Made by a program: the position numbers and the translations under genes. This document shows, in pieces, positions 4,541 through 31,136 of a DNA stretch of 32,000 nt. Origin of the DNA: Candidatus Nitrosopumilus koreensis AR1 (GTDB lineage: Archaea > Thermoproteota > Nitrososphaeria > Nitrososphaerales > Nitrosopumilaceae); the NCBI RefSeq assembly GCF_000299365.1, contig NC_018655.1, positions 1,020,001 through 1,052,000 on the forward strand, written 5' to 3'. The notes beneath the pieces were generated by a model. The model worked only from the letters and a program-made list of their open reading frames with translations, had not been told where the DNA came from and searched no databases. Position 1 is the first letter of the stretch; each line of letters starts with the position of its first letter.

Positions 4541-4562
4541 AAATACAGGAGAGCCGACTAGT
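4541..4562 (+). repeat. Left copy of 22-bp direct repeat (candidate attL core)
   Basis: AAATACAGGAGAGCCGACTAGT, identical to 31034-31055. It begins 19 bp after the kinase stop. Confidence 0.8.
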
Positions 4563-9683: not shown

Positions 9684-9824
9684 ACAGAACAAGAGCAGTT
9701 CATAAAATATTCTATTCTAGACACTATTAGATGACTGCAAAATTTGCAAGTAAAAAAACATGACTGCAATCCTTGAAAAATAATTTACAAATTTCTGAAA
9801 TTTTTTATAATATAATTTTCCAGT

Positions 9825-10058: not shown

Positions 10059-10059
10059 T

Positions 10060-10725: not shown

Positions 10726-10746
10726 ACTGTATGAAGTCTTATTTTA

Positions 10747-10768
10747 TCATTGAAAAGTGCTTCTGATG
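10747..10768 (-). promoter_or_regulatory. Conserved upstream block, copy B
   Basis: Same 22-mer, ending 21 nt upstream of the ATG at 10725. Confidence 0.6.
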
Positions 10769-10778
10769 TTTTGTATCT

Positions 10779-11330: not shown

Positions 11331-11336
11331 TTTCTA

Positions 11337-15269: not shown

Positions 15270-15290
15270 ACTGTATGAAAATTCATCACA

Positions 15291-15312
15291 TCATTGAAAA
15301 GTGCTTCTGATG
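15291..15312 (-). promoter_or_regulatory. Conserved upstream block, copy A
   Basis: Same 22-mer, ending 21 nt upstream of the ATG at 15269. Confidence 0.6.
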
Positions 15313-15320
15313 TATGATAT

Positions 15321-16133
15321 CTAGTTATTTTTGTGCACGCCAGTTTCATCACAGGTGTATGTTCCCAAGAAATTCAAAATGTTTTCTTGTGCAACATCTG
15401 TCTGATGGACTCGTTGAGCATAGCAATGAAATGATATGTCTTTTATGTTGTGGTTTTGGTCCAGATTCAGATTCATTCTAACGCTGAAATTATCTCCGTC
15501 TCCTGCAAAATAAGACAGGATGTTATCATCAAAGAGTACATCCGCGTCATCATACACGCTGTAAAATGCTACAACCTCTGGCAGTGTTTTGTAATAATCT
15601 AAAATTGGTTCATCAGAGAAAATAGTTTTTGCAACCCATCCTCTCTGAACTAATTTTAGAACGGACTCTTCAAACACGCAAACAGCTTTGCTGTAATCAG
15701 GTTTTACCACCAACTCACGTTCAGGGGCACATCCATTTAGTGCAGCAGCAGAATATTTTTCAAATATTATGTATTCAGACTTTGATGTTTGAACTATATC
15801 TCCATTGACCTTTCCAACAATCATTATGAAAAACCTTCCAACATCATCAAGAAAGTAATTCTGATGAGTCCCAAAACTTTTTCCAGGAGATACGTCACCT
15901 GAATGCTGTTTTGTATCCCAATAGTTGTCACCTTCTATGTTTTCAAAAATATACTCAATTGATGCAGTTGTGCCGTAATTGTTTGGGTTGTTCACTGAAG
16001 TGTGTATAGCAACAGGGTTTCCAACTTGACCGTAAAATGTCCCGTATCGGTCATCAACATGTTCAGCAAATACAGAAGGCATGAAAAACAGCATAAAGAC
16101 AAAACTGATCCCAATAACTGCTGTACCCACCAT
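15321..16133 (-). CDS. Secreted hypothetical protein (270 aa)
   Basis: Signal peptide MVGTAVIGISFVFMLFFMPSVFA|EH. The motif 'AVCVFEESVLKLVQRGW' is shared with the 596-aa protein. Confidence 0.65.
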   Translation of the reverse strand: MVGTAVIGISFVFMLFFMPSVFAEHVDDRYGTFYGQVGNPVAIHTSVNNPNNYGTTASIEYIFENIEGDNYWDTKQHSGDVSPGKSFGTHQNYFLDDVGRFFIMIVGKVNGDIVQTSKSEYIIFEKYSAAALNGCAPERELVVKPDYSKAVCVFEESVLKLVQRGWVAKTIFSDEPILDYYKTLPEVVAFYSVYDDADVLFDDNILSYFAGDGDNFSVRMNLNLDQNHNIKDISFHCYAQRVHQTDVAQENILNFLGTYTCDETGVHKNN

Positions 16134-18544: not shown

Positions 18545-19345
18545 TTATTCTTTGAGTTTACTTTCTTTGAAGACGTCAGAGCCGTACCAACAATATCTAA
18601 AGTAATCAAGGCACCATTCATGAAACATTTGATCATTCGAATAAAACATTTCAGAAATATCTGATTCGTTATCATTTGTAGGAAACATTATGCATGCCTC
18701 CTTTTCATTTAGGACAAGCACAGTATGTACATCTTTTACCATTTTTCTTTCAACAAATCCTTTTTCAATCAATTTGTCAAACCCTAATTTCTTCAGCAAT
18801 GCCTTTCTGCCTTTTGGAATAACAGTATTTTCTGCATAGATATAGTGGAATTGGACTCCTTTCTTTACCTGTTTGACTAAAGGTTCTATTAAATCAAGAG
18901 GCACCTCTGAAACTACCTCATAGATGTATTTTTCAGAATTTTTGTAAATGCTCTTCCATTGTTCAAGTACTTTAGAAACTCCTTTGATATGCTTGTTCAA
19001 TGCAAGCTGTCCGCAACGCATATTGAATTTGTGGGGAACGTCTCCAAAGCTATGCTTTTCAAAATATTGCAGATTCTGCATCAAAAATACCAAAGAAGGA
19101 ACTTGAGAGCATATGATTTTACCAAATGTTGTCAGTTCAAATGTTCCCCCTGATGTTTTTTTAATCAATCCATTTTTTTCAAGTCGTGAGAAATTCCTAT
19201 GAACTTCCTGTCGTGTTGCCTGAAGTTCTTTTGCACATGTAGTCGGGGTCAAATTCCTACTAAGTAACATGAACAATATGTTTAGTCTCTGAGGACTTGC
19301 AAGCTCCAAAACATAATCAGCCGTTTTGTCAATAAGATCTTCCAT
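18545..19345 (-). CDS. ArsR-type winged-helix regulator with FilR1/DUF1724-like C-terminal domain
   Basis: The N-terminal wHTH is 'SPQRLNILFMLLSRNLTPTTCAKELQATRQEVHRNFSRLEKNGLIKK'. A ~170-aa C-terminal domain matches that archaeal family in size and layout. Confidence 0.7.
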   Translation of the reverse strand: MEDLIDKTADYVLELASPQRLNILFMLLSRNLTPTTCAKELQATRQEVHRNFSRLEKNGLIKKTSGGTFELTTFGKIICSQVPSLVFLMQNLQYFEKHSFGDVPHKFNMRCGQLALNKHIKGVSKVLEQWKSIYKNSEKYIYEVVSEVPLDLIEPLVKQVKKGVQFHYIYAENTVIPKGRKALLKKLGFDKLIEKGFVERKMVKDVHTVLVLNEKEACIMFPTNDNESDISEMFYSNDQMFHEWCLDYFRYCWYGSDVFKESKLKE

Positions 19346-19402: not shown

Positions 19403-19945
19403 TCAGGCAGTATTCCATGGACGTGACTCCAAAAAATCAATCTCTGCAACCATATCATCGACTTTCTTGACTACTGCAAATATTGAACGATATTCATCAT
19501 ACATATCAGATTCTTCCTGAGGAGTAAGAACACTGGATTCGGCATCATCAAAAAACTTGTTTTCCTTGTTCAAGTGGTCATTAAGGAACACAGCATATGT
19601 TTTGAGATAGCGTATGACATTTTCCCTGGCATCCTCGCCATTCTTCCATCTTTTGAGGTGATGTGAAAGTTTTCTTGCAACATTTCTTCCAAGCTCATGT
19701 TCTACAAGGAATTTGTGGATCTCATCTTTGAGAGAACCATGACTTGAAACGCAAGGAAAGTAAGAGTCTTCTTCCCTAGAATGATGAATTGTGTCAATAA
19801 ATTCAGAGATGACAATTGTAATTTTTGTCAAATCAGAAAATGGAATTTCTTCTCCTTTGTTAAGTTCACCCACACACTTGAAAATAATTTTCTCCAATCT
19901 TCGTACATGTACATGGTCTTCTCTCAGAGTATTCGTTGCACTCAT
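19403..19945 (-). CDS. Hemerythrin-like (HHE cation-binding) domain protein
   Basis: Repeated His/Glu motifs: 'REDHVHVRRLEK', 'IHHSREEDSYFP', 'VEHELGRN', 'LNDHLNKENKFF'. Confidence 0.7.
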   Translation of the reverse strand: MSATNTLREDHVHVRRLEKIIFKCVGELNKGEEIPFSDLTKITIVISEFIDTIHHSREEDSYFPCVSSHGSLKDEIHKFLVEHELGRNVARKLSHHLKRWKNGEDARENVIRYLKTYAVFLNDHLNKENKFFDDAESSVLTPQEESDMYDEYRSIFAVVKKVDDMVAEIDFLESRPWNTA

Positions 19946-19948: not shown

Positions 19949-20176
19949 CTACTCCTTTGAGGACAAAAAATTCCTAAGAATTTCTGCAGCTCCAGAAGTA
20001 TCACATGCTTCAAGCCTGTCAAGAAGATAAGAATCGGCTTCTATTTCATTCATTTTTTCTTTAAGATTACGATATTTTTCTGCATCATCATAATAATTTA
20101 AAATCTGAGTTAAATCATCAGATGAAATACCACTTTCTTTAAGTTTAGATTCAAGATCTTCTTTTTTCAATGACAT
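19949..20176 (-). CDS. Small acidic hypothetical protein (75 aa)
   Basis: ATG ORF whose stop lies 3 nt before the hemerythrin start. Helical, charged sequence. Confidence 0.45.
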   Translation of the reverse strand: MSLKKEDLESKLKESGISSDDLTQILNYYDDAEKYRNLKEKMNEIEADSYLLDRLEACDTSGAAEILRNFLSSKE

Positions 20177-20238: not shown

Positions 20239-21573
20239 TCATGTAACATTTACAGTACCTTTCATCCATGGATGTAATGTACAGATATAATCAATGATGC
20301 CAGGATTTTCAAATGTATGACTCCAAGTTTTGCCCGCTTGAATAAATTCTGAATCAAATGATTTTTCATTATCAGTCACAGTATGTACAACAGAATCATC
20401 GTTTGTCCAAGTTACTGTTGTTCCAGATTTTACCTCGATGGAAATTGGATCATAAGATTCCACAACATCTGGATTCCAAGAGCCTTTTACAATTGAAACT
20501 TTATCAGTTTGGACTTTTTCAGTATGGCTGACCTGAACCTGACCTAAATTCTCATATGAGATTATCTTTGGTTGTTCTAATGATTTTATCAATTCTTCTT
20601 GCCATTCTATCATGGAATAGCTTCCTTTGTTGTTACTTGGAGTTTGAATATCAGTTAATGAGGATGCATCCTCAAGCACTTCAATAATTGCCATAGAGCC
20701 ACGTTCTTCCTGAATACCGTGAACATGGAACAAGTATCTACCAGGAGTGTCCCAAGTAGCTTCAATAATTGCAGTATCACCATTTCCAATCAAATGTGTC
20801 TGTGCAAAATATGGTTCATTCCATAAAATTCCTGATGGGTAGACCTGCATTATTGTACTGTGTATATGAAAAGGGGATTGCAACACGCCACCAATACCAA
20901 CTACATAAAATCGTGTCAGATCTCCAGCTACAACTTTGATTGGGTGTTCCATGTATTGACCAGCATACCCGTTAATTGGATAGTATTTTGTAAAATACGC
21001 TAGAGTGTCAGTAGGATCAAACTCACTTAAAGTGAAAAAGTACTCTCTTGCAGGCTCCATTGGTCGTATTGCAGGATCAATTATCATTGTACCAAACATC
21101 CCCATTCGAACATGTTCAGTTGTGGGAAATGCATGACAATGATACATGAAAAGACCTGCCTCTTCTGCGATAAAGTGATACGTGTATTCTTCTCCAGGCA
21201 TTATCATTGGAAACACACCATCATTTACAGAGTCATGAGTTCCATGGAAATGAATAGTATGTGCATATGGAGTATCATTAACAAACTTGACAGTAACATC
21301 ATCCCCTTCGCTAAATCTAAGAGTAGGAGCTGGAACTGTTCCATTATATGTCCAAACTGTTGCACGTTCACCACCAGCTACTTCAATTTCTGCATCTTGG
21401 GCAATTAGTGTATAATGTAATGTCTGAGGATTTGGATTCTCAAATTTTGGATAGATATTAGACGAGTCTGCAATAGTAGTTTGTAATTCAGGAGATTGAA
21501 TCAGTAATGCAGATGCAATACCGACCCCTATAATCACCCCTACAATAACATACAGAGTACTTGGCTTGATCAT
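20239..21573 (-). CDS. Two-domain multicopper oxidase (NirK-superfamily) with fused C-terminal plastocyanin-like cupredoxin domain, paralog 1
   Basis: N-terminal anchor. Copper motifs 'HTIHFHGTH', 'MYHCHAFPTTEHVRMGMFG', 'FHIHS' and 'LFHVHGIQEERGSM'. The C-terminal type-1 Cu site is 'VVHTVT...YICTLHPWMKG'. Confidence 0.85.
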   Translation of the reverse strand: MIKPSTLYVIVGVIIGVGIASALLIQSPELQTTIADSSNIYPKFENPNPQTLHYTLIAQDAEIEVAGGERATVWTYNGTVPAPTLRFSEGDDVTVKFVNDTPYAHTIHFHGTHDSVNDGVFPMIMPGEEYTYHFIAEEAGLFMYHCHAFPTTEHVRMGMFGTMIIDPAIRPMEPAREYFFTLSEFDPTDTLAYFTKYYPINGYAGQYMEHPIKVVAGDLTRFYVVGIGGVLQSPFHIHSTIMQVYPSGILWNEPYFAQTHLIGNGDTAIIEATWDTPGRYLFHVHGIQEERGSMAIIEVLEDASSLTDIQTPSNNKGSYSMIEWQEELIKSLEQPKIISYENLGQVQVSHTEKVQTDKVSIVKGSWNPDVVESYDPISIEVKSGTTVTWTNDDSVVHTVTDNEKSFDSEFIQAGKTWSHTFENPGIIDYICTLHPWMKGTVNVT

Positions 21574-21674
21574 AATATCACCGACAGTACAACTATTGAA
21601 ATTCCTGCAATAGCATAAAATGCCCAGAATGCTTTTTTGTGTCTTGGAGGATTTTGCTTAGCTTGAGATTTCAT
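21570..21674 (-). CDS. 34-aa membrane micro-ORF translationally coupled to oxidase paralog 1
   Basis: My translation is MKSQAKQNPPRHKKAFWAFYAIAGISIVVLSVIL*. GGAGG lies 7 nt upstream of the ATG. The stop TGA overlaps the oxidase ATG (ATGA). Confidence 0.4.
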   Translation of the reverse strand: MKSQAKQNPPRHKKAFWAFYAIAGISIVVLSVIL

Positions 21675-21697
21675 TGTATTCCTCCTTTAGAAAAAAC

Positions 21698-21759
21698 TGC
21701 GAGAACAGTGTGAAAAAAGTCACACTTGTTTTCGTGTCTATGGGGATAGCGTTCTCGCA
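21698..21759. promoter_or_regulatory. Nested inverted repeats in the divergent oxidase-1 / zinc-ribbon-1 intergenic region
   Basis: TGCGAGAAC (21698-21706) pairs with GTTCTCGCA (21751-21759). These enclose AGTGTGA-aaaaag-TCACACT (21707-21726). Confidence 0.4.
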
Positions 21760-21875
21760 TATTCAGAATATACCAAAAGAAAGGATTAATCTTCGTCAGC
21801 TGTATAGCTTACATGTAACGCTAGATGAGACAAAATTCTTTGAGAAAAAAAATAATGCAAATTAGGAGGAATTGA

Positions 21876-22097
21876 TTGTCTAGAAATTCAGGTCCATTTC
21901 CATCATGTGTTGGAGAATGTAAAAAGTATCAAGTAAAAAGACCTCTGAAGGGTAGAAGATACGAGTTAGGACAGAAGAGATGTCAAACACGCAACCAATG
22001 GCTAGAATACGATGGGATTAGGTGCCCATGTTGCAATTACAGGCTCAGAACAGGTGCACGAAGCAGAACAACAGAAAAAATAGTGCCTAGAATATGA
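21876..22097 (+). CDS. Small basic Cys-rich (zinc-ribbon-like) protein, paralog 1
   Basis: 'PSCVGECKKYQVKRP...RCQTRNQWLEYDGIRCPCCNYRLRTGARSR' aligns with 24496..24699. It is divergent from an oxidase gene. The start is TTG in the track. Confidence 0.5.
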   Translation: MSRNSGPFPSCVGECKKYQVKRPLKGRRYELGQKRCQTRNQWLEYDGIRCPCCNYRLRTGARSRTTEKIVPRI

Positions 22098-22140
22098 ACA
22101 TTCCAATTATCTGATTTTTAAAAAAATGGAGTAAATGGGT

Positions 22141-22236
22141 TTAGGAGATTTCCTTTCCACATTTACTTGAACATATTTTTTCAAACAAGCTGACAAACTC
22201 TCGTCCACAATGAATACATTTTTTGAGAATTTTCAT
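22141..22236 (-). CDS. Possible 31-aa zinc-ribbon micro-protein
   Basis: My translation is MKILKKCIHCGREFVSLFEKICSSKCGKEIS*. Its ATG overlaps the TAA of the upstream micro-ORF by 1 nt. Confidence 0.3.
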   Translation of the reverse strand: MKILKKCIHCGREFVSLFEKICSSKCGKEIS

Positions 22237-22373
22237 TAGTTATGAAACAGCTCCACAAAGTCGCAGGAATTGCAAAACTTTGCTTGGATCTTTCTCCAAG
22301 GCTGTCGTGCATGGATAGAGACATTCGTGTCACTTGTGTGAATTAGGTTTGAACACTTTGGACATGATTCCAT
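22236..22373 (-). CDS. Possible 45-aa zinc-ribbon micro-protein
   Basis: My translation is MESCPKCSNLIHTSDTNVSIHARQPWRKIQAKFCNSCDFVELFHN*, with CPKC...CNSC. Confidence 0.3.
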   Translation of the reverse strand: MESCPKCSNLIHTSDTNVSIHARQPWRKIQAKFCNSCDFVELFHN

Positions 22374-22508
22374 GTTCTTAGTTATTGCACAATGATATTA
22401 CAAGTGGTAAACAACACAGTTGCTTTGTCATAAGACAAGCTGACAGACTTGGCTACAATTTTTCAAAACATAATACATAATTAACTAACAATTATTGTAA
22501 AGAAGCAA

Positions 22509-23042
22509 TTGAGCACTGAACAAAAAAAGAAAACAGAGACAATGTCGTTTAGGTTAGACAGTCAGATCTTAGGTAAATTACGAGCAGAGTCAGAATCTCA
22601 AGGGGTCAGTTTGAATACATTGGCAAGTAAGATCTTTTCAAGATATGTAGATTGGGGCATGTTTGAGCCTAAAGTAGGAATGGTGCCAATAGCAAAACCC
22701 ATTGTAACTGCATTATTTCAAAAACTTTCAGAACAAGAGACTATTGATCTTGCAAAACAAATTGGCAAAAGTATCGTGTCAGATATAGCCACATTCATGA
22801 AAGGCTCATTTGATCTAGACTCATTTGTATCATGGTTTATCACGAGAATGAAAATATCTGATTTTGAGTTGAACCACACGATAAATAATTCAAAACACAG
22901 TTTCATAATAAAACATGACTTGGGATACAACTGGTCACTGTATCACAAAACAGTACTGGAATTAATTTTCAATGAGGCATTTGAGAAAAAAATTGATTTT
23001 GAGATAAAAGATAGAATGATGGAATTAAGTTTTGAGAAATAA
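22509..23042 (+). CDS. Ribbon-helix-helix (CopG/Arc-like) N-terminal domain protein
   Basis: 'MSFRLDSQILGKLRAESESQGVSLNTLASKIFSRYVDW' has a strand-helix-helix pattern. The likely true start is the ATG at 22542. The C-terminal ~130 aa are unknown. Confidence 0.55.
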   Translation: MSTEQKKKTETMSFRLDSQILGKLRAESESQGVSLNTLASKIFSRYVDWGMFEPKVGMVPIAKPIVTALFQKLSEQETIDLAKQIGKSIVSDIATFMKGSFDLDSFVSWFITRMKISDFELNHTINNSKHSFIIKHDLGYNWSLYHKTVLELIFNEAFEKKIDFEIKDRMMELSFEK

Positions 23043-24404
23043 TCAAACAGCCTTGATTGTTCCAGTCATCCATGGATGAAGCATACAGTAGTATTCATAC
23101 AAACCCACACTTTCAAATGTCTGCTCAAATGCATCACCAGGCATCATCATGCCAGAATCAAACAATTCATCATTGCTTGTCACAGTATGAACTGAGATGT
23201 CCTTGTTTGTCCACGTGACAGTATCACCTTTCTGAATCTGTGTCAATTTAGGATAGTATGACTTGTTTGAAGATTTTATCGCAGAACCTTCTTCTACTTC
23301 ACAAAGAGTGGTTTCAACTATCTGGGATTCATCGGTATTCTGTGCAAATGTGAGATGTTCTTCATGACTAGATGTACTTGCAGCAGTTTTTGTGATTTCT
23401 GCAGATTTGTCAGGAGATTCCAGTTCTGTGAAAACTTGTTTTTGCCAATCCCACATATCAATGGATTTAGTTCTTGCAACATCAACACCATCTATTGCAT
23501 CAGATGAGGCATCTCTTACATCAAAGTAAGCCATAGTGCCCTTTTCTTCAGGGACACCATGCAAATGGAAGAGATACCTTCCAGGTTCTTTCCATGTAGC
23601 TTCAAAGATTGCAGCATTTCCAGGACCGACCTCCCATGTCTGTGTCTTGATAGGTTCATTTTCCCAGATTCCAGAAACTATAGTATCAAATATTGTACCA
23701 TGAATGTGGAACCCAAATGCAGGGATTGCACCCATATCTACATAATACAATCGGACTAATTCACCAGTTTTTGCAGGCAATGGATTTGTCCAGTATTGAT
23801 CAGCATATCCGTTAAAGAAAACATAATCAGGCGTCCATGTCTCCTGATCTTCCAAATCGTATTCACCTTTGACAAGAACATATTCCCTTGCAGGTTCTAC
23901 TCCTTCTCTAGGATCTACAATGAATGCACCATACAATCCATTTCTAACATGTTCAGACACTGGCATAACATGACAATGGTACATGAAAACCCCTGCAGGT
24001 TCTGCTATGAAATCATACGTGTAAGACTCACCAGGAAGAACTTCTTGAAACACTCCATCATTTTTCTCATTATGATCACCATGAAAATGCATCGTATGTG
24101 GAAGTTTTCCGTTATTGATAAAATTGATAATCACCCTGTCTCCTTCAGTTGCACGTAACGTAGGACCAGGAATTGTTCCGTTATATGTCCAAGCTTCAAC
24201 TCTAACACCTGGAGAAATCTCCAACGTTGTATCTTCAGCAATCACAGTGAATGTTCTTGTAATTGGAGAGCTGTGGACAGAGGGGTCTTGAGCGAATGAT
24301 TGCAAAGGCAATTCGGAATCTAAGAAGAAAACACCTAATGTTACTCCGAGAGATATAACGCCGATGAGCATGATCGTTGTTCTGTCCACGAAACACAATA
24401 TCAC
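23043..24404 (-). CDS. Two-domain multicopper oxidase with fused C-terminal plastocyanin-like domain, paralog 2
   Basis: 'HTMHFHGDH', 'MYHCHVMPVSEHVRNGLYG', 'FHIHGT', 'LFHLHGVPEEKGTM', and C-terminal 'SVHTVT...YYCMLHPWMTG'. The track start is GTG; an alternative ATG is at 24371 (MLIGVISLG). Confidence 0.85.
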   Translation of the reverse strand: MILCFVDRTTIMLIGVISLGVTLGVFFLDSELPLQSFAQDPSVHSSPITRTFTVIAEDTTLEISPGVRVEAWTYNGTIPGPTLRATEGDRVIINFINNGKLPHTMHFHGDHNEKNDGVFQEVLPGESYTYDFIAEPAGVFMYHCHVMPVSEHVRNGLYGAFIVDPREGVEPAREYVLVKGEYDLEDQETWTPDYVFFNGYADQYWTNPLPAKTGELVRLYYVDMGAIPAFGFHIHGTIFDTIVSGIWENEPIKTQTWEVGPGNAAIFEATWKEPGRYLFHLHGVPEEKGTMAYFDVRDASSDAIDGVDVARTKSIDMWDWQKQVFTELESPDKSAEITKTAASTSSHEEHLTFAQNTDESQIVETTLCEVEEGSAIKSSNKSYYPKLTQIQKGDTVTWTNKDISVHTVTSNDELFDSGMMMPGDAFEQTFESVGLYEYYCMLHPWMTGTIKAV

Positions 24405-24430
24405 AGATTGCTTTTAATCAGGAGGTTTAT

Positions 24431-24450
24431 TTTGCAAACATTTGCAAACA
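24431..24450. promoter_or_regulatory. Perfect tandem TTTGCAAACA x2 in the divergent oxidase-2 / zinc-ribbon-2 intergenic region
   Basis: TTTGCAAACATTTGCAAACA. Each unit contains the palindrome TTTGCAAA, and the centres are 10 bp apart. Confidence 0.45.
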
Positions 24451-24495
24451 ACATAATACGCTGTTCTTATGTACAATGTTTTTTTCTAATCTGTC

Positions 24496-24699
24496 TTGGC
24501 ACCAAGATGTAAGGGACATTGTATTGATTTTAAGATAAAACGATTTGAGGGAGGAATAAAGTATCAAAATGGATTAAAGTGGTGTACGATATGTTCAAGA
24601 TTTATTCAGACAGATCTTATACGTTGTTCTTGTTGCAACACAAAATTGCGAGTAAGAGCTAAGAACAGAATATATCAAAAAAAGATTCAAAGAATTTGA
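24496..24699 (+). CDS. Small basic Cys-rich (zinc-ribbon-like) protein, paralog 2
   Basis: 'PRCKGHCIDFKIKRF...WCTICSRFIQTDLIRCSCCNTKLRVRAKNR' has CxxxC, CxxC and CxCC. It is divergent from oxidase paralog 2. Confidence 0.5.
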   Translation: MAPRCKGHCIDFKIKRFEGGIKYQNGLKWCTICSRFIQTDLIRCSCCNTKLRVRAKNRIYQKKIQRI

Positions 24700-24749: not shown

Positions 24750-25139
24750 ATGCAAATCAAGATCATGGAAATCAAAGGGATGTACATGCTAAAGACATCA
24801 GAATTTACCGAGGAAAAAATTCAAGAGTCACTCAAAATGTTGTATGCAGACAGGCAAAACGAGTTCCGCACGATATCTGAAGTATTCTTGGGAAAAGACA
24901 GATTGAATCAGACTCCAGAATGGAAGGAATTTGTGTTGAATTTTTGTCTGGACGTAGAGGACTCTTTTAAGACATGGTCTAATCAAAAACAGCCATCTAC
25001 AACATCACCCCAAAAAGCCCTGACAATCCTAAGACAGATAGGCAATGGCATGACATCCATGAACCAACTAACGCACATACTGAATCTTGCATTCAACATA
25101 TCAAAGGAGTTCAAAGAGATTTACAGACGTTTGAAATGA
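24750..25139 (+). CDS. Hypothetical protein (129 aa or shorter)
   Basis: Open frame with several candidate ATG starts (MQIKIMEIKGMYM). No recognisable domain. Confidence 0.45.
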   Translation: MQIKIMEIKGMYMLKTSEFTEEKIQESLKMLYADRQNEFRTISEVFLGKDRLNQTPEWKEFVLNFCLDVEDSFKTWSNQKQPSTTSPQKALTILRQIGNGMTSMNQLTHILNLAFNISKEFKEIYRRLK

Positions 25140-26142: not shown

Positions 26143-28074
26143 TCATTTTAATTCGGATTTAGTACTTATCCAATCTAAAGGAATTAGTTTTTCCCCATTT
26201 CGCCATCTCTCTCTAATACATGATTGGAATTTTGTATCAGCAGGTTCTGCATGTTCTGTTATGATGACTTGCAATTGCCCTTTTGATTCCTCTACAGTGT
26301 TAAAAATCAAATTAAAGACTCTTGCTAATGATTTTTCATCATCACTACTGAGTTGTTTGGTTTTTACTGATTTGTCTTGTGGATAATAAACCTGAGATGG
26401 TTGATCAAAAATAATGAATCTGGGAACGGGTCTTGAATGTTTTCTAAAAAACTGATGTAGAGCTAAATGTGTAATTATATGATACCCCATCCAATTTTTC
26501 CCACTTCCCGTATTTCTCAATGAAATTGGATTGCCATCTCTTTCTATAATTAGAGTCAATTTGTTTAAATCAAGTTTTATAGGGTATTCTGAATGTTCTA
26601 ATTCTAATTCTCGTGACCACTCTGTCATGAGATCGCTAATTTCATTCAGCGCTTTTTTCGTTTTACGTTCAATTAGACTATCATCAAGAATCTTCTCAAT
26701 TTCCTCAATTTTTGTTTTTGTTTTTATGGTGTTTTTTAATCCTAAATTCTCATCTGATGCATCCACATTTTCTAACCAGAATTTGATTTTTCCAATAATT
26801 TCAGATTTCATCATTTGAATATTTCTTAAATCCTGTTCTTTTTGATGGTACTTTAAAATTGAATTAATTTGTGTGAGCAATTGATTTCTGTCAAAAATTA
26901 TTTTTTCACGTTTATCTTCTAATGAATTCAGATATTTTTGAATATGGGGTTTTTCTTTTTGTGTCCCTTCAAGAGATTTTGCTAAATCTTGAATTGAATT
27001 GTTGATTGAATTAACTTGAGAAATTTTTGTTTTTAGTTCACTTTCACATAATGGACACACAGTAGAATCATGTTTCAATATGTCAAAAAGTCCTAAAGTA
27101 TCTAAGCGTTGTTTTTGAAATTCCATTTCTGTAGCATATGATGCAATCTCCTCATGAGCTTTTTTTAGGTCACTAATTTTTTCATCTAGATAAGATAATT
27201 CCTTATCTGTTTTTTTGATCTTTTCTTGTAATTCAAACAGTCGGCTATCTTTAGGTAAATCTAACGACTCAATTTGAGATTTAGCTGCTTTTTCAAGAAT
27301 TTTTTGATTGTGTTTTATGTCTCCTAATTGGGTATTTGAAGGAATAAGCCCATATTCTTTGGCCTCTGCAATTAATCCAATAGTTTTTGATATGCCTTCT
27401 CCACGAATTGACGCATATTCTTTTTCCTCTTGTTCTAATCTAAACAACTCTCTTCTAATTTTCATTAATTCAAATTCCAACATCATTAGATTGTCTGGAA
27501 TTGCTCCAAGAAAATATGGGGTTACCACGGATAATGTTTTAGGAATCCATTCTTCATCTTGTCTATGGAATAAAATTTTCTTTGAAGCTATTTCTGACTG
27601 ATATTGAAAACAAAATAATGAACTATGGTTAAAATTTACAGAAATTGGGACATTCATATTTTTTGAGATAGAAAGTTTTAGTTCAGAGGGAATACCTATC
27701 TCTGAAGTTAGTTTGTTGCGAACTACATCTGTTGTGATATTTTCATGAGGGGTTTTAGAAGGAGATGTTAATTTTGCATTTTTTTCAAAATATGCTTTTG
27801 TAGATGAATTTTTTCCAGGATTGGGATTTTTACGAGCAATGAAAATTCTTTCATTTTTCATTTGAAGCAGTACTCCATACCAATCAACAGTTTCTCTAAT
27901 TGGGCCTGCAGGAATTGTACATGTGTCGCTTCCAAAACAATATTCAAGTATATCTACTAAAGATGATTTTCCAGTTGTCGAATCTCCAGTGATGATGTTT
28001 GTTGCCCCTAAATGAAATTCTACTTTTCTAATTTTTCCATTTTTTCCATATAGAACAATTTCTTTTATTTGCAT
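26143..28074 (-). CDS. ABC-3C system ATPase: coiled-coil SMC/Rad50-like ABC ATPase (DUF3732-type)
   Basis: Walker A 'ITGDSTTGKSS'. A long charged coiled-coil insert has a central 'CPLC'. 'NTGSGKNW' is signature-like. Walker B/D-loop is 'RFIIFDQPS'. H-loop is 'VIITEHA'. Confidence 0.8.
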   Translation of the reverse strand: MQIKEIVLYGKNGKIRKVEFHLGATNIITGDSTTGKSSLVDILEYCFGSDTCTIPAGPIRETVDWYGVLLQMKNERIFIARKNPNPGKNSSTKAYFEKNAKLTSPSKTPHENITTDVVRNKLTSEIGIPSELKLSISKNMNVPISVNFNHSSLFCFQYQSEIASKKILFHRQDEEWIPKTLSVVTPYFLGAIPDNLMMLEFELMKIRRELFRLEQEEKEYASIRGEGISKTIGLIAEAKEYGLIPSNTQLGDIKHNQKILEKAAKSQIESLDLPKDSRLFELQEKIKKTDKELSYLDEKISDLKKAHEEIASYATEMEFQKQRLDTLGLFDILKHDSTVCPLCESELKTKISQVNSINNSIQDLAKSLEGTQKEKPHIQKYLNSLEDKREKIIFDRNQLLTQINSILKYHQKEQDLRNIQMMKSEIIGKIKFWLENVDASDENLGLKNTIKTKTKIEEIEKILDDSLIERKTKKALNEISDLMTEWSRELELEHSEYPIKLDLNKLTLIIERDGNPISLRNTGSGKNWMGYHIITHLALHQFFRKHSRPVPRFIIFDQPSQVYYPQDKSVKTKQLSSDDEKSLARVFNLIFNTVEESKGQLQVIITEHAEPADTKFQSCIRERWRNGEKLIPLDWISTKSELK

Positions 28075-28562
28075 TATGGTTTTACTCCCAATGATGAATA
28101 AATTGATTCAATTTTTCTCGTTTTTGCAAACCAGCGTCCTATAGTTTCAGCTTTTTTAAAACATTCAGTTTTTTCATCATGTACATCATCTATGGTGTCG
28201 TTAATTTGATAATTCAAGACAGTTATTGACGCGTTATTATCTAATGAAATTTGATTTTGTTCTAACAAAAACCAAAATGAATTTTTTGTTACAGGAACCA
28301 AATCTTTTGCAATTTTATGAAAATGTATCAAAATTTCTGAATTCATATTTAACCAATTTGAGAAATTTTGACGTGAACCATATTCAATTTTTTCCCTAGT
28401 TTCTTTATGCAAAACTAACGGAAGTATTAGGAATAAGAGTGGAAAAGGCATGGGTCTGGTGGAATATTTTGTATATTTTTTGACACATCTGCGCAAAATT
28501 TCTGCACAGAACGCAGGATTAAAGAGATTGAAAATCTCTCGTGATTCATTCGTTTGATTCAT
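28074..28562 (-). CDS. ABC-3C middle component
   Basis: 162 aa. 'FNPAFCAEILRRCV...MPFPLLFLILPLVLHKETR' resembles the ABC-three-component middle-component families. TAATG overlap with the ATPase start and a 17-nt overlap with the effector end. Confidence 0.6.
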   Translation of the reverse strand: MNQTNESREIFNLFNPAFCAEILRRCVKKYTKYSTRPMPFPLLFLILPLVLHKETREKIEYGSRQNFSNWLNMNSEILIHFHKIAKDLVPVTKNSFWFLLEQNQISLDNNASITVLNYQINDTIDDVHDEKTECFKKAETIGRWFAKTRKIESIYSSLGVKP

Positions 28563-29181
28563 TTTTATCCATTTTCGAAATTTTAGTTTTGTAATCTGGA
28601 TGCCATCCTATTTCTTCTTTATCCGACAGTATCTGAAAAGTGCCACGTCTAACAAAAGGAGATTTACATAATGGTCTTATACACAATGCATCAGTTCCAT
28701 AGTTTGCCCATTGAAGTAATTCTCTACCCCGAGATTTTTTGGTATTGTCATGGGAATTATTATCTAAAGATTCTTCCATCTCGTCAAATCTTCGTTCCCA
28801 TTCTGTTCTCAATAAATTATCAAATTTTTTTAATTCATCAAAGAATATCAATTCATTTCTAATCCACTTTGATCTATGCTCACTAGCAAGGTAGAAGTCA
28901 CTCTTGCAATGTCTTTTCGTGTTATCGCCTACAGAAATCCAATCTAATTGTTTTACAAAAGTTCTGTCATCATTAGGCAAATCTTTATCAGATATGGCTG
29001 ATTCGTCAAAATAAATTGGTAAATTATCATTAGTGTATTTTCTAGATATGTCTAAAATTTTTTCTCTAACTTCATTTTTAGATATATTTCTAGATATTTG
29101 CCCCGTCAATCTAAGCAAAACTTCTCCCCACCACCAACCAAGTAATTCATCATACAAATCATTAATTCGGTTAGGAATCAC
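28546..29181 (-). CDS. C-terminal part of the ABC-3C effector (ABC-3C C-terminal domain)
   Basis: 'FVKQLDWISV...ASEHRSKWIRNELIFFDELKKFDNLLRTEWERRF...RRGTFQILSDKEEIGWHPDY'. The track start is GTG. The frame continues upstream after correction of a homopolymer. Confidence 0.65.
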   Translation of the reverse strand: MIPNRINDLYDELLGWWWGEVLLRLTGQISRNISKNEVREKILDISRKYTNDNLPIYFDESAISDKDLPNDDRTFVKQLDWISVGDNTKRHCKSDFYLASEHRSKWIRNELIFFDELKKFDNLLRTEWERRFDEMEESLDNNSHDNTKKSRGRELLQWANYGTDALCIRPLCKSPFVRRGTFQILSDKEEIGWHPDYKTKISKMDKNESNE

Positions 29182-29326
29182 ACTATAATCAAGACTTGAA
29201 ATAATTGCTTTTTTATTTCATTAATTTTTGGGTATGTGTCTATGATGTAGATGTTATCTAATAGACTAAATTTTTGATAATCATCTAGCTTGTTAAATTT
29301 ATCATAATGCTTTTCATGAGAAACAT

Positions 29327-29761
29327 CTATTTTTTTCGCGATTTCATTAATTTTTTTAAAACTGATGCAGTGTCTCTGTTTTCAGGACGTAAGTTAGTTA
29401 AGACTGAAGAATCAGAAATTTTTTGCGTAGTGATTATCATCAACATTGTGTCTTGTGGTCTCAGTTTTTTTTCAAAATATGCTTCACTCCAATTTCCCAA
29501 GGTGTTCCAAAAATCTGTACTGGAATTGGTCAATTTCCCTTTGTCATCCTTGTGGTGTTTGGTTTCTATCCCAACAATAATTTGTTCATCTTTTATGAGG
29601 GACACATCATCAAATTTTTCCAAAGCAATTTCAGTATTTTCGTTACTTTTCAACAATAAAGACAATGCAAAATATGCCTCGTAAACATACCCTACAAAGG
29701 AATCACTTGCGTCAATTTTTTTCATTGTTTGCATGCTATCATATTCATAAAATAATTGCAA
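29327..29761 (-). CDS. N-terminal part of the ABC-3C effector: Cap4/DUF4297-like PD-(D/E)xK nuclease domain
   Basis: 'FVGYVYEAYFALSLLL...IALEKFDDVSLI...IVGIETKHH...LTNSSTDFWNTLGNW' shows the D...ExK restriction-endonuclease-fold signature. The ORF ends at an A7 run. Confidence 0.65.
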   Translation of the reverse strand: MQLFYEYDSMQTMKKIDASDSFVGYVYEAYFALSLLLKSNENTEIALEKFDDVSLIKDEQIIVGIETKHHKDDKGKLTNSSTDFWNTLGNWSEAYFEKKLRPQDTMLMIITTQKISDSSVLTNLRPENRDTASVLKKLMKSRKK

Positions 29762-29855: not shown

Positions 29856-30998
29856 TTATTTTTGATTTTTATTTTCTTGTCTTGCAATCCAGTTCAAAAT
29901 TTTCTCATTATCTTCTTTGATTTGTTCAAGTTCAGTTTTTTCTGATTTTAATTTCTCGTTTTCAACACGCATTCTTTCATCATCAGATATAGTCAACAAT
30001 GGAATTGCCTTTTGATATTCAGAAAATCTCTCAAAATCATCTTCCTGATATCGCTCATAGTGAGATTCCAAGCCTACTTTATGACCCATCATATCCTCTT
30101 TATCCAAAAAATTTACCTTGGCACGTCTCATCATGGTGTTAAAATATTTTCGAAGACCATGTGCTAGCATAACCTTGTGGCGTTTCTTACCGGGTTCTAA
30201 CGGAGGTCTCAATCCAGCCTTTTTAGCAAGTGTGTTCATTCTTGATTCCATACCTCTTTTGCCTATTCGTTTAGGATCATGAATCCTAACTGAAATAACA
30301 AGAGGTTCAGAGTCTTTAGGATATCTCATGAATCTAGATTTCCAATATTCTTTGTACAGTTGCAGATACTTTCCAGCTTCTGGTGTAAAGTGAGTCCAGT
30401 ACTCTTCATTATCACCATGATAAACTCTCAGAGCACCGCCTTTCAATGAATTATCATCATTGTAAAAGAACAAGACATCTTCCCACGTGAAATAGTCCCA
30501 TGCCTCAATTCTAAATCCTGCTGAAGAAGAAAGCGTTATCATGATTTTATCAACAAGGTTTGTGGCATTTGCCATTAACATTTGAAGTTGTTCTCTAGAG
30601 TATGCCATGTCTTTTGACTTGCCGGGTTTTGGAATGGATTTTCCTATCATCTTCCATGAAAAGTCAATATCGTTTGCAGCAAACAATGCCTTGATTGGTT
30701 TGATTAAATTCAAAACTCTTGCAGGAGAAATCTCTTTAGAATCTACTTTCTTTTTTAATTCTCTAACATATGCATTGATAATTGATTTGCCTATCTTTAC
30801 ATCGTCTCTAACAAGAGCAACAAAGGCTTCTGTTTTGTCAGTAGTGTCAATCTTTTTTTCTTCAAAAATCTTGTCTGGAATTAAATCAAGAAACTTTTGT
30901 AGATCATTTGTGTATTTTTTGCGAGTTTTTTCATTTCTGATATAATCTAAAAAATTCTGAAAAGCAGACGATTTTACATCAGAAATATCTAATTTCAT
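29856..30998 (-). CDS. Tyrosine recombinase / phage-type integrase
   Basis: 'SSAGFRIEAWDYFTW' (Arg I region), 'LAHGLRKYF' (HxxR), 'MMGHKV' and 'SHYERY' (Tyr). The ATG at 30998 (MKLDISDVKS) is preferred because the track start at 31094 runs through the att repeat. Confidence 0.85.
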   Translation of the reverse strand: MKLDISDVKSSAFQNFLDYIRNEKTRKKYTNDLQKFLDLIPDKIFEEKKIDTTDKTEAFVALVRDDVKIGKSIINAYVRELKKKVDSKEISPARVLNLIKPIKALFAANDIDFSWKMIGKSIPKPGKSKDMAYSREQLQMLMANATNLVDKIMITLSSSAGFRIEAWDYFTWEDVLFFYNDDNSLKGGALRVYHGDNEEYWTHFTPEAGKYLQLYKEYWKSRFMRYPKDSEPLVISVRIHDPKRIGKRGMESRMNTLAKKAGLRPPLEPGKKRHKVMLAHGLRKYFNTMMRRAKVNFLDKEDMMGHKVGLESHYERYQEDDFERFSEYQKAIPLLTISDDERMRVENEKLKSEKTELEQIKEDNEKILNWIARQENKNQK

Positions 30999-31033
30999 AC
31001 ATTCTATAGAACTTGGGGCTATTTTAGTAAGTA

Positions 31034-31055
31034 AAATACAGGAGAGCCGACTAGT
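31034..31055 (+). repeat. Right copy of 22-bp direct repeat (candidate attR core)
   Basis: AAATACAGGAGAGCCGACTAGT, identical to 4541-4562. It lies 36 bp upstream of the integrase ATG. Confidence 0.8.
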
Positions 31056-31136
31056 CTCCCCCGCCCTCAGATCATAAGACCTGATGAACAACATACATTA
31101 CAAAATTTGTATAAAAACACAAAATAATTTTTGAGC

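What the first reader, a model, noticed from the sequence alone, without database searches (positions are those of the whole stretch)
20239..24699. Duplicated module: three-cupredoxin copper oxidase divergently paired with a small basic Cys-rich protein
Two paralogous oxidases (20239..21573 and 23043..24404) share the same architecture. Each has an N-terminal anchor and two NirK/2dMCO-like cupredoxin domains carrying HxHxH, YHCH...H....M/L, FHIH and FH(V/L)HG motifs. Each also has a fused plastocyanin-like domain (H...CxLHPWM).

Each is divergently transcribed from a ~70-aa basic protein. The two small proteins align over their length: P-C-G-C...KR...G--Y--G-K-C...IRC-CCN--LR--A--R. Paralog 1 has lost the second Cys of the central CxxC (RCQTRN versus WCTICS).

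An RHH protein and two zinc-ribbon micro-ORFs lie between the modules. The pairing suggests a dedicated small regulator, or a metallochaperone, for each oxidase. It is notable that such respiratory or NO-related enzymes are carried on a mobile element.
Basis: partly seen in the sequence, partly recalled or inferred. Interest (0 to 1): 0.65.

Follow-up and report, generated by a model that had tools for sequence, protein, structure and literature searches.

The report
Two archaeal copper oxidases, small zinc-ribbon neighbours
The two copper oxidases sit on an already published mobile element of the ammonia-oxidising archaeon Nitrosopumilus koreensis and belong to a known, partly characterised enzyme lineage; what is new is that their two small cysteine-rich neighbours are real, unannotated genes of a very large uncharacterised archaeal family, and only one of them is consistently linked to its oxidase.

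Summary
Two 42%-identical three-cupredoxin oxidases and two 38%-identical basic Cys-rich ORFs lie at the stated coordinates.

The window is Ca. Nitrosopumilus koreensis AR1, and the region lies inside the published integrated element NitKor-E3. Both oxidases belong to the known MCO4 lineage. Oxidase 1 is 84% identical to Nmar_1354 (PDB 9CCK), the characterised hydroxylamine-to-nitroxyl oxidase.

"Duplicated module" is not supported:
- The oxidases fall in two old clades, each with closer orthologues elsewhere.
- Small protein 1 is no closer to small protein 2 than other family members are.
- Oxidase-1 orthologues lack a small partner.
- Orthologues of small protein 1 sit in other contexts.

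Oxidase 2 does belong to a conserved cassette: two micro-ORFs, an RHH-like 177-aa protein, the oxidase and small protein 2. Five other genomes carry its core (the 177-aa gene is confirmed in four of them). All share an invariant intergenic double TTGCAA motif. That motif also occurs upstream of the oxidase in four loci without the small gene. It therefore tracks the oxidase and the 177-aa protein, not small protein 2.

The small ORFs are absent from the published annotation, are under purifying selection, and belong to a family restricted to ammonia-oxidising archaea (at least 954 clusters at 50% identity, no Pfam model). Their function as regulators is inferred, not shown.

The parts
4541..4562 (+). 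Left att direct repeat of the integrated element NitKor-E3 (AAATACAGGAGAGCCGACTAGT)
   Evidence: Exact 22-nt direct repeat. It is identical to the att listed for NitKor-E3, at 1024541..1051055 of NC_018655, in Table S2 of PMC6563490.
31034..31055 (+). Right att direct repeat of NitKor-E3
   Evidence: The 26,514-bp span between the repeats equals the published element length.
29856..31094 (-). Tyrosine integrase of the element (annotated start corresponds to window 30998)
   Evidence: Pfam Phage_integrase, E 1.1e-8. Listed as NKOR_06300, XerC/XerD integrase.
18545..19345 (-). Winged-helix regulator (HVO_A0261_N / ArsR-like), last gene of the oxidase-1 operon
   Evidence: Pfam PF25213, E 3.7e-11. 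Orthologues lie downstream of the oxidase-1 orthologue in L013 (71% identity) and near the small-protein-1 orthologue in L093 (69% identity).
19403..19945 (-). Hemerythrin HHE-domain protein
   Evidence: Pfam PF01814, E 4.7e-12.
19949..20176 (-). 75-aa acidic protein (arCOG14336)
   Evidence: Orthologues at 64-68% identity in L002, L003 and L005. arCOG assignment.
20239..21573 (-). Oxidase 1: MCO4-lineage multicopper oxidase (two-domain MCO plus C-terminal cupredoxin), orthologue of Nmar_1354
   Evidence: Pfam hits. PDB 9CCK chain A at E 1.5e-246, 83.6% identity over 408 ungapped residues.
21570..21674 (-). 34-aa membrane peptide ORF overlapping the oxidase-1 start (ATGA)
   Evidence: 53% identical ORF at the same position upstream of the oxidase-1 orthologue in L013.
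21698..21759 (.). Conserved nested inverted repeats in the oxidase-1 promoter region (TGCGAGAAC...GTTCTCGCA and AGTGTGA-N6-TCACACT)
   Evidence: Both repeats are also present upstream of the L013 orthologue. The inner palindrome there differs by a change on both arms (CATTGTGA-N7-TCACAATG).
21876..22097 (+). Small protein 1: 73-aa basic protein of the 7-Cys family, with the CxxC knuckle degraded to CQTR
   Evidence: pN 0.21-0.32 against pS 0.75-0.92 versus orthologues. Not in the published annotation.
22141..22236 (-). 31-aa CxxC...C...C micro-ORF
   Evidence: 77% identity in L001 and 71% in L003. pN 0.13 against pS 0.64.
22236..22373 (-). 45-aa CxxC...CxxC micro-ORF
   Evidence: 80% identity in L001 at the same position, divergent from the 177-aa gene. 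pN 0.13 against pS 0.80.
22509..23042 (+). 177-aa protein with an N-terminal RHH-like segment (arCOG08805), convergent on and abutting oxidase 2
   Evidence: Sub-threshold CopG_antitoxin hits in 9 of 10 family members. Found next to MCO4 genes in L001, L002, L003, L005, L006, L010, L012 and L014.
23043..24389 (-). Oxidase 2: second MCO4-lineage oxidase (Leu axial T1 ligand). The ORF runs to 24404; the probable start is the GTG at 24389.
   Evidence: 9CCK at E 6e-110. Orthologues at 79-83% identity.
24411..24418 (-). Conserved TTTTAA(T/C) element, putative TATA box of oxidase 2 (inferred)
   Evidence: Invariant columns in the alignment of six loci, 22-29 bp from the start codon.
24431..24449 (.). 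Invariant double motif TTTGCAAACATTTGCAAAC: two TTGCAA units 10 bp apart, between the divergent promoters (candidate operator)
   Evidence: Invariant in six loci while the flanks vary. Unique in the window. The relaxed form TTGCA-N5-TTGCA lies upstream of oxidase-2-clade genes in nine other loci.
24466..24473 (+). Conserved TTA..TA element, putative TATA box of small protein 2 (inferred; implies a leaderless transcript)
   Evidence: Invariant columns 23-30 bp upstream of the conserved TTG start.
24496..24699 (+). Small protein 2: 67-aa basic protein of the 7-Cys family, with a TTG start conserved in all orthologues
   Evidence: dN/dS 0.04-0.23. Not in the published annotation or in the sister assembly's gene calls.
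24750..25139 (+). 129-aa protein (arCOG08757), a frequent neighbour of the cassette
   Evidence: Homologues in L002, L003 and L005. In those loci a TTGCA-N5-TTGCA site precedes it. No such site precedes it in the window.

Best explanation
**What the region is.** It is part of the integrated element NitKor-E3 of Ca. Nitrosopumilus koreensis AR1. It carries two anciently diverged paralogues of the MCO4 lineage, which are membrane-anchored, extracytoplasmic two-domain multicopper oxidases with a pendant C-terminal blue-copper domain.

**Oxidase 1.** It is the orthologue of Nmar_1354 and most likely couples hydroxylamine oxidation to O2 reduction, as that enzyme does. It heads its own operon: a 34-aa membrane peptide, the oxidase, a 75-aa protein, a hemerythrin and a winged-helix regulator. 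The operon has its own conserved palindromic promoter elements.

**Oxidase 2.** It belongs to a separate conserved cassette: two Zn-ribbon micro-ORFs, a 177-aa RHH-like protein, the oxidase and small protein 2. An invariant pair of TTGCAA sites, 10 bp apart, sits between two divergent TATA-like boxes. It most likely co-regulates the oxidase and small protein 2.
- The site is probably bound by the RHH-like 177-aa protein. This is an inference.
- Small protein 2 is a cytoplasmic, Zn-binding, nucleic-acid-binding protein that is co-regulated with the oxidase or acts as a co-regulator. This is also an inference.

**The small proteins.** Both are genuine but unannotated genes of a very large 7-Cys family restricted to ammonia-oxidising archaea. 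Members also occur in the core genome, in tandem arrays and in Nitrosopumilaceae spindle-shaped viruses. Small protein 1 next to oxidase 1 is a lineage-specific juxtaposition, not a conserved pair.
For: **Identity of the locus**
- The att repeat, coordinates and gene list match the published element.

**MCO4 membership**
- Domain hits and invariant ligands.
- 9CCK at E 1.5e-246 and 83.6% identity for oxidase 1, and E 6e-110 for oxidase 2.
- The lineage definition and enzyme activity come from PMC7785015 and PMC11761707.

**Old paralogy**
- The NJ tree places the two oxidases in separate clades, each with Nitrosopumilus and Nitrosarchaeum members.

**Cassette 2**
- The order 177-aa gene, oxidase, small gene recurs in L001, L002, L003 and L005. 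L009, a short contig, shows only the oxidase and the small gene. The outer flanks differ between loci.
- Synonymous sites are saturated: dN/dS is 0.04-0.23 for small protein 2, 0.06-0.12 for the oxidase and 0.06-0.12 for the 177-aa gene.

**The double motif**
- It is invariant in six loci.
- The relaxed motif lies 40-70 bp upstream of oxidase-2-clade genes in nine other loci. Four of these lack the small gene (L006, L010, L012, L018). Every one of the nine whose flanking DNA reaches that far carries the 177-aa gene (seven loci).
- Only about seven stray sites occur in roughly 1 Mb of unrelated loci.

**Oxidase 1**
- Its promoter repeats are shared with L013, which has no small gene.

**The family**
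- 954 clusters at E <= 1e-3 in 1.84 billion representatives, and 3,903 clusters at 90% identity.
- No Pfam, NCBIfam or PDB match.
- Core-genome context next to NAC and UbiD, tandem arrays and six virus genomes.
Against: - No expression, DNA-binding or metal data exist for any of these proteins.
- The RHH assignment of the 177-aa protein rests on sub-threshold Pfam hits and on the published arCOG label. The single-sequence structure model is poor in that segment (pLDDT below 50 for residues 3-62).
- The model of small protein 2 is only moderate (pLDDT 69) and has no significant structural neighbour.
- Members of the small family elsewhere in the genomes that lack a linked copy could still bind the motif.
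- The promoter elements are inferred from conservation and spacing only.
- Oxidase 2 has a Leu axial ligand and only 42% identity to the characterised enzyme, so its substrate may differ.
- In L093 the orthologue of small protein 1 lies divergent from an operon ending in the same winged-helix regulator. Some functional link between small protein 1 and that operon, though not the oxidase itself, cannot be excluded.
Confidence: 0.6

Rival explanations
1. An ancestral module of one oxidase plus one small protein was duplicated. Each small protein is the dedicated regulator or copper chaperone of its adjacent oxidase.
For: - Both small genes lie divergently upstream of an oxidase.
- The divergence is similar for the oxidase pair (42%) and the small-protein pair (38%).
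- The pairing is conserved for oxidase 2.
- The Cys-rich composition could bind metal.
Against: - Oxidase-1 orthologues in L013, L014, L016 and L019 have no family member in their flanks.
- Orthologues of small protein 1 lie in another operon context, without an oxidase in L093.
- Small protein 1 is no closer to small protein 2 than the family at large.
- The two intergenic regions share no motif.
- The double TTGCAA site persists where the small gene is absent.
- A basic cytoplasmic protein is an unlikely chaperone for a Sec-anchored extracytoplasmic oxidase.
Confidence: 0.1
2. The small proteins are generic nucleic-acid-binding proteins of mobile elements and viruses of ammonia-oxidising archaea. 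They would act, for example, as element-level transcription or chromatin factors. Their position next to the oxidases would be hitch-hiking, with no functional link to copper enzymes.
For: - The family occurs in spindle-shaped virus genomes, in tandem arrays and fused to a region that looks, by eye only, like a ParB-type domain, and to other domains.
- A 'Zn-ribbon' arCOG is among the five most common on thaumarchaeal integrated elements.
- None of the 80 metagenomic loci retrieved with the small-protein-1 subfamily (best relatives 40-56% identical) holds a full oxidase.
Against: - The adjacency of small protein 2 to oxidase 2 is kept in five other genomes, despite saturated synonymous divergence and differing outer flanks.
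- The two genes share one short intergenic region with an invariant element.
- The family also has a core-genome member in a housekeeping context.
Confidence: 0.25
3. The small ORFs are chance reading frames in AT-rich intergenic DNA, as their absence from the published annotation might suggest.
For: Neither ORF is in the GenBank annotation used in 2019. Small protein 2 is also uncalled in the sister assembly. Both start with TTG.
Against: - pN is far below pS for both.
- The TTG start is conserved in all six orthologues.
- Seven Cys are invariant across 60 diverse members.
- There are thousands of homologues.
Confidence: 0.02

Closest known systems
Nmar_1354 of Nitrosopumilus maritimus (MCO4 lineage; PDB 9CCK; Voland et al. 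2025, PMC11761707)
   Same: - Oxidase 1 is 83.6% identical over 408 ungapped residues.
- It has the same three-cupredoxin layout, the same T1, trinuclear and pendant T1 ligands, and Met as axial ligand.
- Oxidase 2 shares the architecture and all ligands.
   Different: - Oxidase 2 is only about 42% identical, belongs to a separate clade and has Leu as axial T1 ligand, as described for N. viennensis MCO4_b.
- Neither window enzyme has been assayed.
- Here both genes are cargo of an integrated element.
NitKor-E3, a cryptic integrated element of Ca. N. koreensis AR1 (Krupovic et al. 2019, PMC6563490)
   Same: It is the same DNA: same att site, length and integrase. Both oxidases, the RHH-like protein, the hemerythrin and the winged-helix regulator are listed there.
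   Different: The published gene list omits both small Cys-rich genes, the two micro-ORFs and the 34-aa peptide. It calls the Lamassu-type genes SbcC and hypothetical proteins. It does not describe the cassette or its motif.
RHH regulators that bind tandem short sites (MetJ, Arc, CopG type)
   Same: The 177-aa protein has an N-terminal RHH-like segment. The conserved site is a pair of short palindromic units one helical turn apart, next to the promoters. This is the geometry used by dimer-of-dimers RHH repressors.
   Different: The protein has an extra 130-aa C-terminal alpha/beta domain with no detectable relatives. The RHH hits are below threshold and no binding data exist.
Small archaeal zinc-finger or zinc-ribbon proteins (for example Halobacterium Brz and the Haloferax micro-proteins; from general knowledge)
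   Same: Proteins of about 60-70 aa with CxxC knuckles, a basic character and a proposed regulatory role.
   Different: No sequence similarity was detected. This family has seven invariant Cys (C-x3-C ... C-x2-C-x10-C-x-CC) and a basic tail, and appears restricted to ammonia-oxidising archaea and their viruses.
Cu-limitation promoter motif of Nitrososphaera viennensis MCO4 genes (Reyes et al. 2020, PMC7785015)
   Same: It is a shared motif 35-70 bp upstream of MCO4 and neighbouring genes. A gene of unknown function directly follows MCO4_b there.
   Different: The published consensus (TTCSGSMTTTGWACYANT) is not the double TTGCAA motif found here. Whether the two are related was not tested.

Membership tests
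MCO4 lineage of thaumarchaeal two-domain multicopper oxidases | Two-domain MCO core with a T1 site and a trinuclear site (four HxH-type pairs, HCH) | tested here: met
   HxxHxH, YHCH, FHIH and FH(V/L)HG are invariant in five sequences. Pfam Cu-oxidase_3 and Cu-oxidase_2 match.
MCO4 lineage of thaumarchaeal two-domain multicopper oxidases | Additional C-terminal T1 cupredoxin domain | tested here: met
   Pfam Copper-bind and Cupredoxin_1 cover residues about 373-443 and 375-451. The H...C..H..M ligands are invariant.
MCO4 lineage of thaumarchaeal two-domain multicopper oxidases | Close homology to a named member (Nmar_1354) | tested here: met
   9CCK at E 1.5e-246 and 83.6% identity for oxidase 1, and E 6e-110 for oxidase 2.
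MCO4 lineage of thaumarchaeal two-domain multicopper oxidases | Hydroxylamine oxidation to nitroxyl coupled to O2 reduction | not testable with these tools
   Activity is known only for Nmar_1354. It is inferred for oxidase 1 and uncertain for oxidase 2.
Copper nitrite reductase (NirK) | T2 catalytic site instead of a trinuclear cluster; score above the family cut-off | tested here: not met
   TIGR02376 scores 105.5 and 146.9 bits against a cut-off of 296.3. The HCH motif and eight His indicate a trinuclear site.
Integrated mobile element NitKor-E3 | Flanking att direct repeats, a tyrosine integrase and the published coordinates | tested here: met
Ribbon-helix-helix (CopG/Arc/MetJ) DNA-binding proteins (177-aa protein) | N-terminal beta-strand/helix/helix motif recognised by RHH profiles | tested here: inconclusive
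   CopG_antitoxin matches 9 of 10 members, HicB 4 of 10 and RHH_1 1 of 10, all below the gathering scores. The model of this segment has pLDDT below 50.
Classical zinc ribbon (small proteins) | Two CxxC knuckles on beta-hairpins | tested here: inconclusive
   Small protein 2 has C30xxC33 and C44xxC47, and the model predicts strands at 27-30 and 35-38. Small protein 1 lacks C33. No Pfam or PDB zinc-ribbon family reaches significance.
arCOG08677 'Zn-ribbon domain containing protein' of thaumarchaeal mobile elements | Sequence membership in that arCOG | not tested
   No arCOG profiles or member sequences were available. The only pointers are lengths (about 130 aa) and mobile-element contexts.
Copper chaperones and copper-sensing factors (HMA/CopZ, copper-fist) | MxCxxC ferredoxin-like fold, or the copper-fist motif | tested here: not met
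   No HMA or Copper-fist hit even at E <= 1 for 28 members. The predicted fold is beta-hairpins plus short helices.

The most novel reading that the evidence does not exclude
The 7-Cys small basic proteins may be a previously unrecognised, lineage-wide class of transcription factors of ammonia-oxidising archaea and their viruses. In this reading the small-protein-2 subfamily, together with the RHH-like 177-aa protein and the double TTGCAA site, forms a dedicated sensor and regulator circuit for a second, uncharacterised MCO4 oxidase. Such a circuit might respond to copper or to a nitrogen-oxide intermediate.
Probability: 0.25. Interest if true: 0.6.

Novelty: new member of a known kind. Interest (0 to 1): 0.35.

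Why it matters
MCO4 enzymes are currently the only biochemically supported enzymatic route to nitroxyl, and hence N2O, in ammonia-oxidising archaea. Nothing is known about how they are regulated.

This work gives concrete handles for studying that regulation:
- Oxidase 1 can be treated as an Nmar_1354 orthologue.
- Oxidase 2 represents a second, untested clade with a different axial ligand.
- The oxidase-2 clade comes with a compact, conserved cassette and a clearly defined candidate operator that can be tested directly.

The work also flags a very large family of small proteins in these archaea that is absent from Pfam and NCBIfam. Standard gene callers miss it in at least this genome. It is shared between core genomes, integrated elements and viruses.

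None of this overturns current views. The element, the oxidase lineage and the carriage of oxidases on mobile elements were already published.

Tried and rejected
- **Pfam, NCBIfam and PDB sequence searches of the small proteins and of a 28-member alignment.** Only noise was returned.
- **AlphaFold model of small protein 2 with 60 homologues.** pLDDT was 69. Foldseek against the PDB gave no match better than E 0.8, only generic zinc knuckles.
- **Structure of the 177-aa protein.** The single-sequence model was poor (pLDDT 58), so I did not run a fold search on it.
- **Scan of viral contigs for the exact 18-nt motif.** It gave 55 hits. None encodes an oxidase, a 177-aa relative or a member of the small family, so I treated them as chance or unrelated repeats.
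- **Searches of viral contigs.** None was found for relatives of the 177-aa protein, and one locus for the small-protein-2 subfamily.
- **Shared motif between the two oxidase/small-protein intergenic regions.** None was found.
- **The oxidase-1 palindromes in L093.** They are absent there.
- **Strain SJ contig (L004).** It is 99.97% identical to the window with zero mismatches, so I did not count it as independent evidence.
- **The published N. viennensis Cu-limitation motif.** I compared it by eye and found no convincing match.
- **Chance enrichment of cupredoxin genes near members of the small family.** Three of 80 loci have one. By my own rough estimate (about 24 cupredoxin genes per genome) I did not regard this as enrichment.

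Full report
**1. What is there**

The ORF list confirms two long minus-strand ORFs (20239..21573, 444 aa; 23043..24404, 453 aa). It also confirms two short plus-strand ORFs lying divergently upstream of them (21876..22097, 73 aa; 24496..24699, 67 aa).
- The oxidases align end to end at 42% identity, E 6e-120.
- The small proteins align over their whole length at 38% identity, E 7e-16.
- Both oxidases hit Pfam Cu-oxidase_3 and Cu-oxidase_2, plus a C-terminal Copper-bind/Cupredoxin_1 domain.
- They score far below the NirK equivalog cut-off: 105 and 147 bits against 296.
- An alignment with three orthologues shows every expected ligand invariant: HxxHxH, YHCH...H, FHIH, FH(V/L)HG, and H...C.LHPWM in the third domain. 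The axial T1 ligand is Met in oxidase 1 and Leu in oxidase 2. The alignment also indicates that oxidase 2 starts at the GTG at 24389.
- The small proteins are strongly basic (pI 10.1-10.2, 17-18 Lys+Arg) and have 7 and 6 Cys.

**2. Where the window comes from**

An exact 22-nt direct repeat, AAATACAGGAGAGCCGACTAGT, lies at 4541-4562 and 31034-31055. This is the att site listed for NitKor-E3, a 26,514-bp cryptic integrated element of Ca. Nitrosopumilus koreensis AR1 (NC_018655: 1024541..1051055), in Krupovic et al. 2019 (PMC6563490, Table S2).

Gene coordinates in that paper's appendix match the window with an offset of 1,020,000. The published list contains both oxidases (arCOG03914), the 177-aa 'CopG/RHH' protein (arCOG08805), the hemerythrin, the winged-helix regulator and the integrase.

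It contains neither small Cys-rich gene. The paper already stresses that thaumarchaeal integrated elements carry multicopper oxidases.

A contig of strain SJ (L004) is 99.97% identical to the window with no mismatches, so it is not independent evidence.

**3. What the oxidases are**

The lineage of two-domain MCOs with an extra C-terminal blue-copper domain is 'MCO4'. It is reported only from Nitrososphaerales, Nitrosopumilus and Nitrosarchaeum (PMC7785015; PMC11761707).

Its member Nmar_1354 has a crystal structure (9CCK). It oxidises hydroxylamine to nitroxyl while reducing O2.
- Oxidase 1 matches 9CCK at E 1.5e-246, with 83.6% identity over 408 ungapped residues.
- Oxidase 2 matches at E 6e-110.

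A neighbour-joining tree of 36 relatives puts the two window proteins in two separate clades. Each clade holds Nitrosopumilus and Nitrosarchaeum sequences, and the Nitrososphaerales sequences lie between them.

Oxidase 1 has 73-80% orthologues (L011, L013-L016, L019) and oxidase 2 has 79-83% orthologues (L001-L003, L005). The paralogy is therefore old. It is not a local duplication.

**4. Are the small ORFs genes?**

Yes.

*Small protein 2*
- It has orthologues at 69-82% identity in Nitrosopumilus sp. b2, Nitrosarchaeum sp. AC2 and a Nitrosopumilaceae MAG, and in two more loci.
- All orthologues use a conserved TTG start.
- Pairwise dN/dS is 0.04-0.23 with synonymous sites near saturation. This is comparable to the oxidase (0.06-0.12) and the 177-aa gene (0.06-0.12).

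*Small protein 1*
- Against its orthologues it shows pN 0.21-0.32 and pS 0.75-0.92.
- Its closest relatives all keep the CxxC that it has lost.

*The family*
- A profile search of 1.84 billion representatives found 954 clusters at E <= 1e-3.
- The word-indexed search found 3,903 clusters at 90% identity. Wherever a source names the organism, it is Nitrosopumilaceae, Nitrosotalea or Nitrososphaera.
- Seven Cys are invariant or nearly so across 60 diverse members: C-x3-C ... C-x2-C-x10-C-x-C-C, followed by LR and a basic tail.
- No Pfam, NCBIfam or PDB family matches.
- An AlphaFold model (pLDDT 69) shows two short hairpins and has no significant structural neighbour.

*Contexts in which members occur*
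- A conserved housekeeping neighbourhood next to NAC and UbiD/UbiA.
- Tandem arrays of two to five genes.
- Internal duplications and fusions to other domains.
- Six Nitrosopumilaceae spindle-shaped virus genomes.

The family may correspond to arCOG08677, one of the five commonest arCOGs on thaumarchaeal integrated elements. I could not test this.

**5. Is the pairing conserved?**

*Oxidase 2: yes, largely*
- The order 177-aa gene (+), oxidase (-), small gene (+) recurs in L001, L002, L003 and L005. L009, a short contig, shows only the oxidase and the small gene. The outer flanks differ between loci.
- The two micro-ORFs, divergent from the 177-aa gene, are also kept in L001. Against L001 they show pN 0.13 and pS 0.64-0.80.
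- Two orthologous loci lack the small gene: L006 (65% identical oxidase) and L018 (83%).

*Oxidase 1: no*
- Four orthologue loci with 2.2-5 kb of upstream sequence (L013, L014, L016, L019) hold no family member, even at E <= 10.
- The three orthologues of small protein 1 that I could find (L092-L094) each follow a different Cys-rich ORF on the same strand. In L093 the divergent neighbour is an operon ending in an orthologue of the window's winged-helix regulator, but with no oxidase.
- None of the 80 metagenomic loci retrieved with the small-protein-1 subfamily (best relatives 40-56% identical) contains a full MCO4 gene.
- Small protein 1 is 37% identical to small protein 2, whereas arbitrary family members are 28-45% identical. 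The two are not a specific pair.

**6. Regulatory signals**

*Between oxidase 2 and small protein 2*
- Aligning the intergenic region from six loci shows an invariant block, TGCAA(A/G)CA-N-TTGCAAACA (window 24431-24449). It consists of two TTGCAA units 10 bp apart.
- The block is flanked on each side by a conserved A/T-rich element, about 22-30 bp from each start codon.
- I read these elements as two divergent TATA boxes driving leaderless transcripts, with a shared central operator. That reading is an inference.
- The exact double palindrome occurs only once in the window.

*The relaxed form, TTGCA-N5-TTGCA*
- It lies 40-70 bp upstream of the oxidase in L001, L002, L003, L005, L006, L009, L010, L012 and L018.
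- These include four loci with no small gene. Every locus where the sequence is available carries the 177-aa gene.
- About 1 Mb of unrelated loci holds only about seven such sites.
- In L002, L003 and L005 a further copy precedes the arCOG08757 gene.
- The motif therefore tracks the oxidase and the RHH-like protein rather than small protein 2.

*Upstream of oxidase 1*
- The promoter carries different conserved elements: TGCGAGAAC...GTTCTCGCA and AGTGTGA-N6-TCACACT.
- Both are shared with L013, which has no small gene. The inner palindrome there differs by a change on both arms.

**7. Mechanism**

*Shown*
- The identity of the element and of the oxidase lineage.
- The reality of the small genes and the size of their family.
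- The conserved cassette and the conserved motif.

*Inferred*
- Oxidase 1 works like Nmar_1354.
- The 177-aa protein binds the double TTGCAA site through an N-terminal RHH domain and controls both divergent promoters.
- Small protein 2 is a cytoplasmic Zn-binding, nucleic-acid-binding protein acting as a co-regulator or a co-regulated factor.

A chaperone role is unlikely. The small proteins lack export signals and are highly basic. The oxidases carry Sec-type anchors without a twin-arginine motif.

**8. Verdict**

- the element (2019);
- the MCO4 architecture (2016);
- the enzymology and structure of the oxidase-1 orthologue (2025);
- the carriage of oxidases on mobile elements (2019).

The idea of a duplicated module fails. 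The new points are modest but real:
- two unannotated genes of a large uncharacterised 7-Cys family restricted to ammonia-oxidising archaea;
- a conserved cassette of up to five genes around the second MCO4 clade;
- a sharply defined candidate operator.

Noticed in passing
window 26143-29761 (- strand): A Lamassu-type (ABC-three-component) defence system. PADLOC gives LmuB at E 1.6e-130, LmuC at 3e-20, and LmuA split over two ORFs (29327-29761 holds the N-terminal part, 28546-29181 the C-terminal part). Pfam gives DUF3732, MC3 and CTD7. The 2019 annotation calls these genes SbcC ATPase and hypothetical proteins. In the near-identical SJ contig, gene calls give a 396-aa CTD7 protein and a split ATPase, so some of these breaks may be assembly indels.
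   Followed up: partly
window 7833-15322 (- strand gene starts): Repeated 30-90-nt blocks lie at the 5' ends of at least six consecutive minus-strand genes, for example ...TCTAGTTTTCATTTT and a 91-nt block at 9425, 10688 and 15232. They suggest a family of paralogous secreted or membrane proteins sharing N-terminal and promoter sequences.
   Followed up: no
window 21570-21674 (- strand): A 34-aa hydrophobic peptide ORF overlaps the oxidase-1 start codon (ATGA). It is conserved at 53% identity upstream of the L013 orthologue. A comparable 51-aa peptide heads the related operon in L093. It may be a small membrane subunit or a leader peptide.
   Followed up: partly
L102, L123, L127, L148 (metagenome contigs), e.g. 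L127 3926-5174: Tandem arrays of four or five members of the 7-Cys small-protein family lie head to tail, often with overlapping stop and start codons. Single polypeptides with two copies also exist (P0007, P0020, P0061).
   Followed up: partly
L092 1-156, L093 3776-4000, L094 66-248: A second small Cys-rich ORF family (about 60-74 aa, CxxC...CxxC...C..C..H) immediately precedes every orthologue of small protein 1 on the same strand. The window has lost it: only about 50 nt of similarity remain upstream of 21876.
   Followed up: partly
window 22270-22284: A one-mismatch copy of the TTGCA-N5-TTGCA motif (TTGCAAAACTTTGCT) lies inside the 45-aa micro-ORF. It may be chance: 14 such one-mismatch sites occur in the window against 6 expected.
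   Followed up: no
L001 versus L013: The oxidase-2 cassette in Nitrosopumilus sp. b2 and the oxidase-1 operon in another Nitrosopumilus MAG occupy what looks like the same chromosomal spot, next to a 213/214-aa membrane protein, an HTH_45 regulator and Sua5. That spot may be a hotspot for MCO4 cargo.
   Followed up: no
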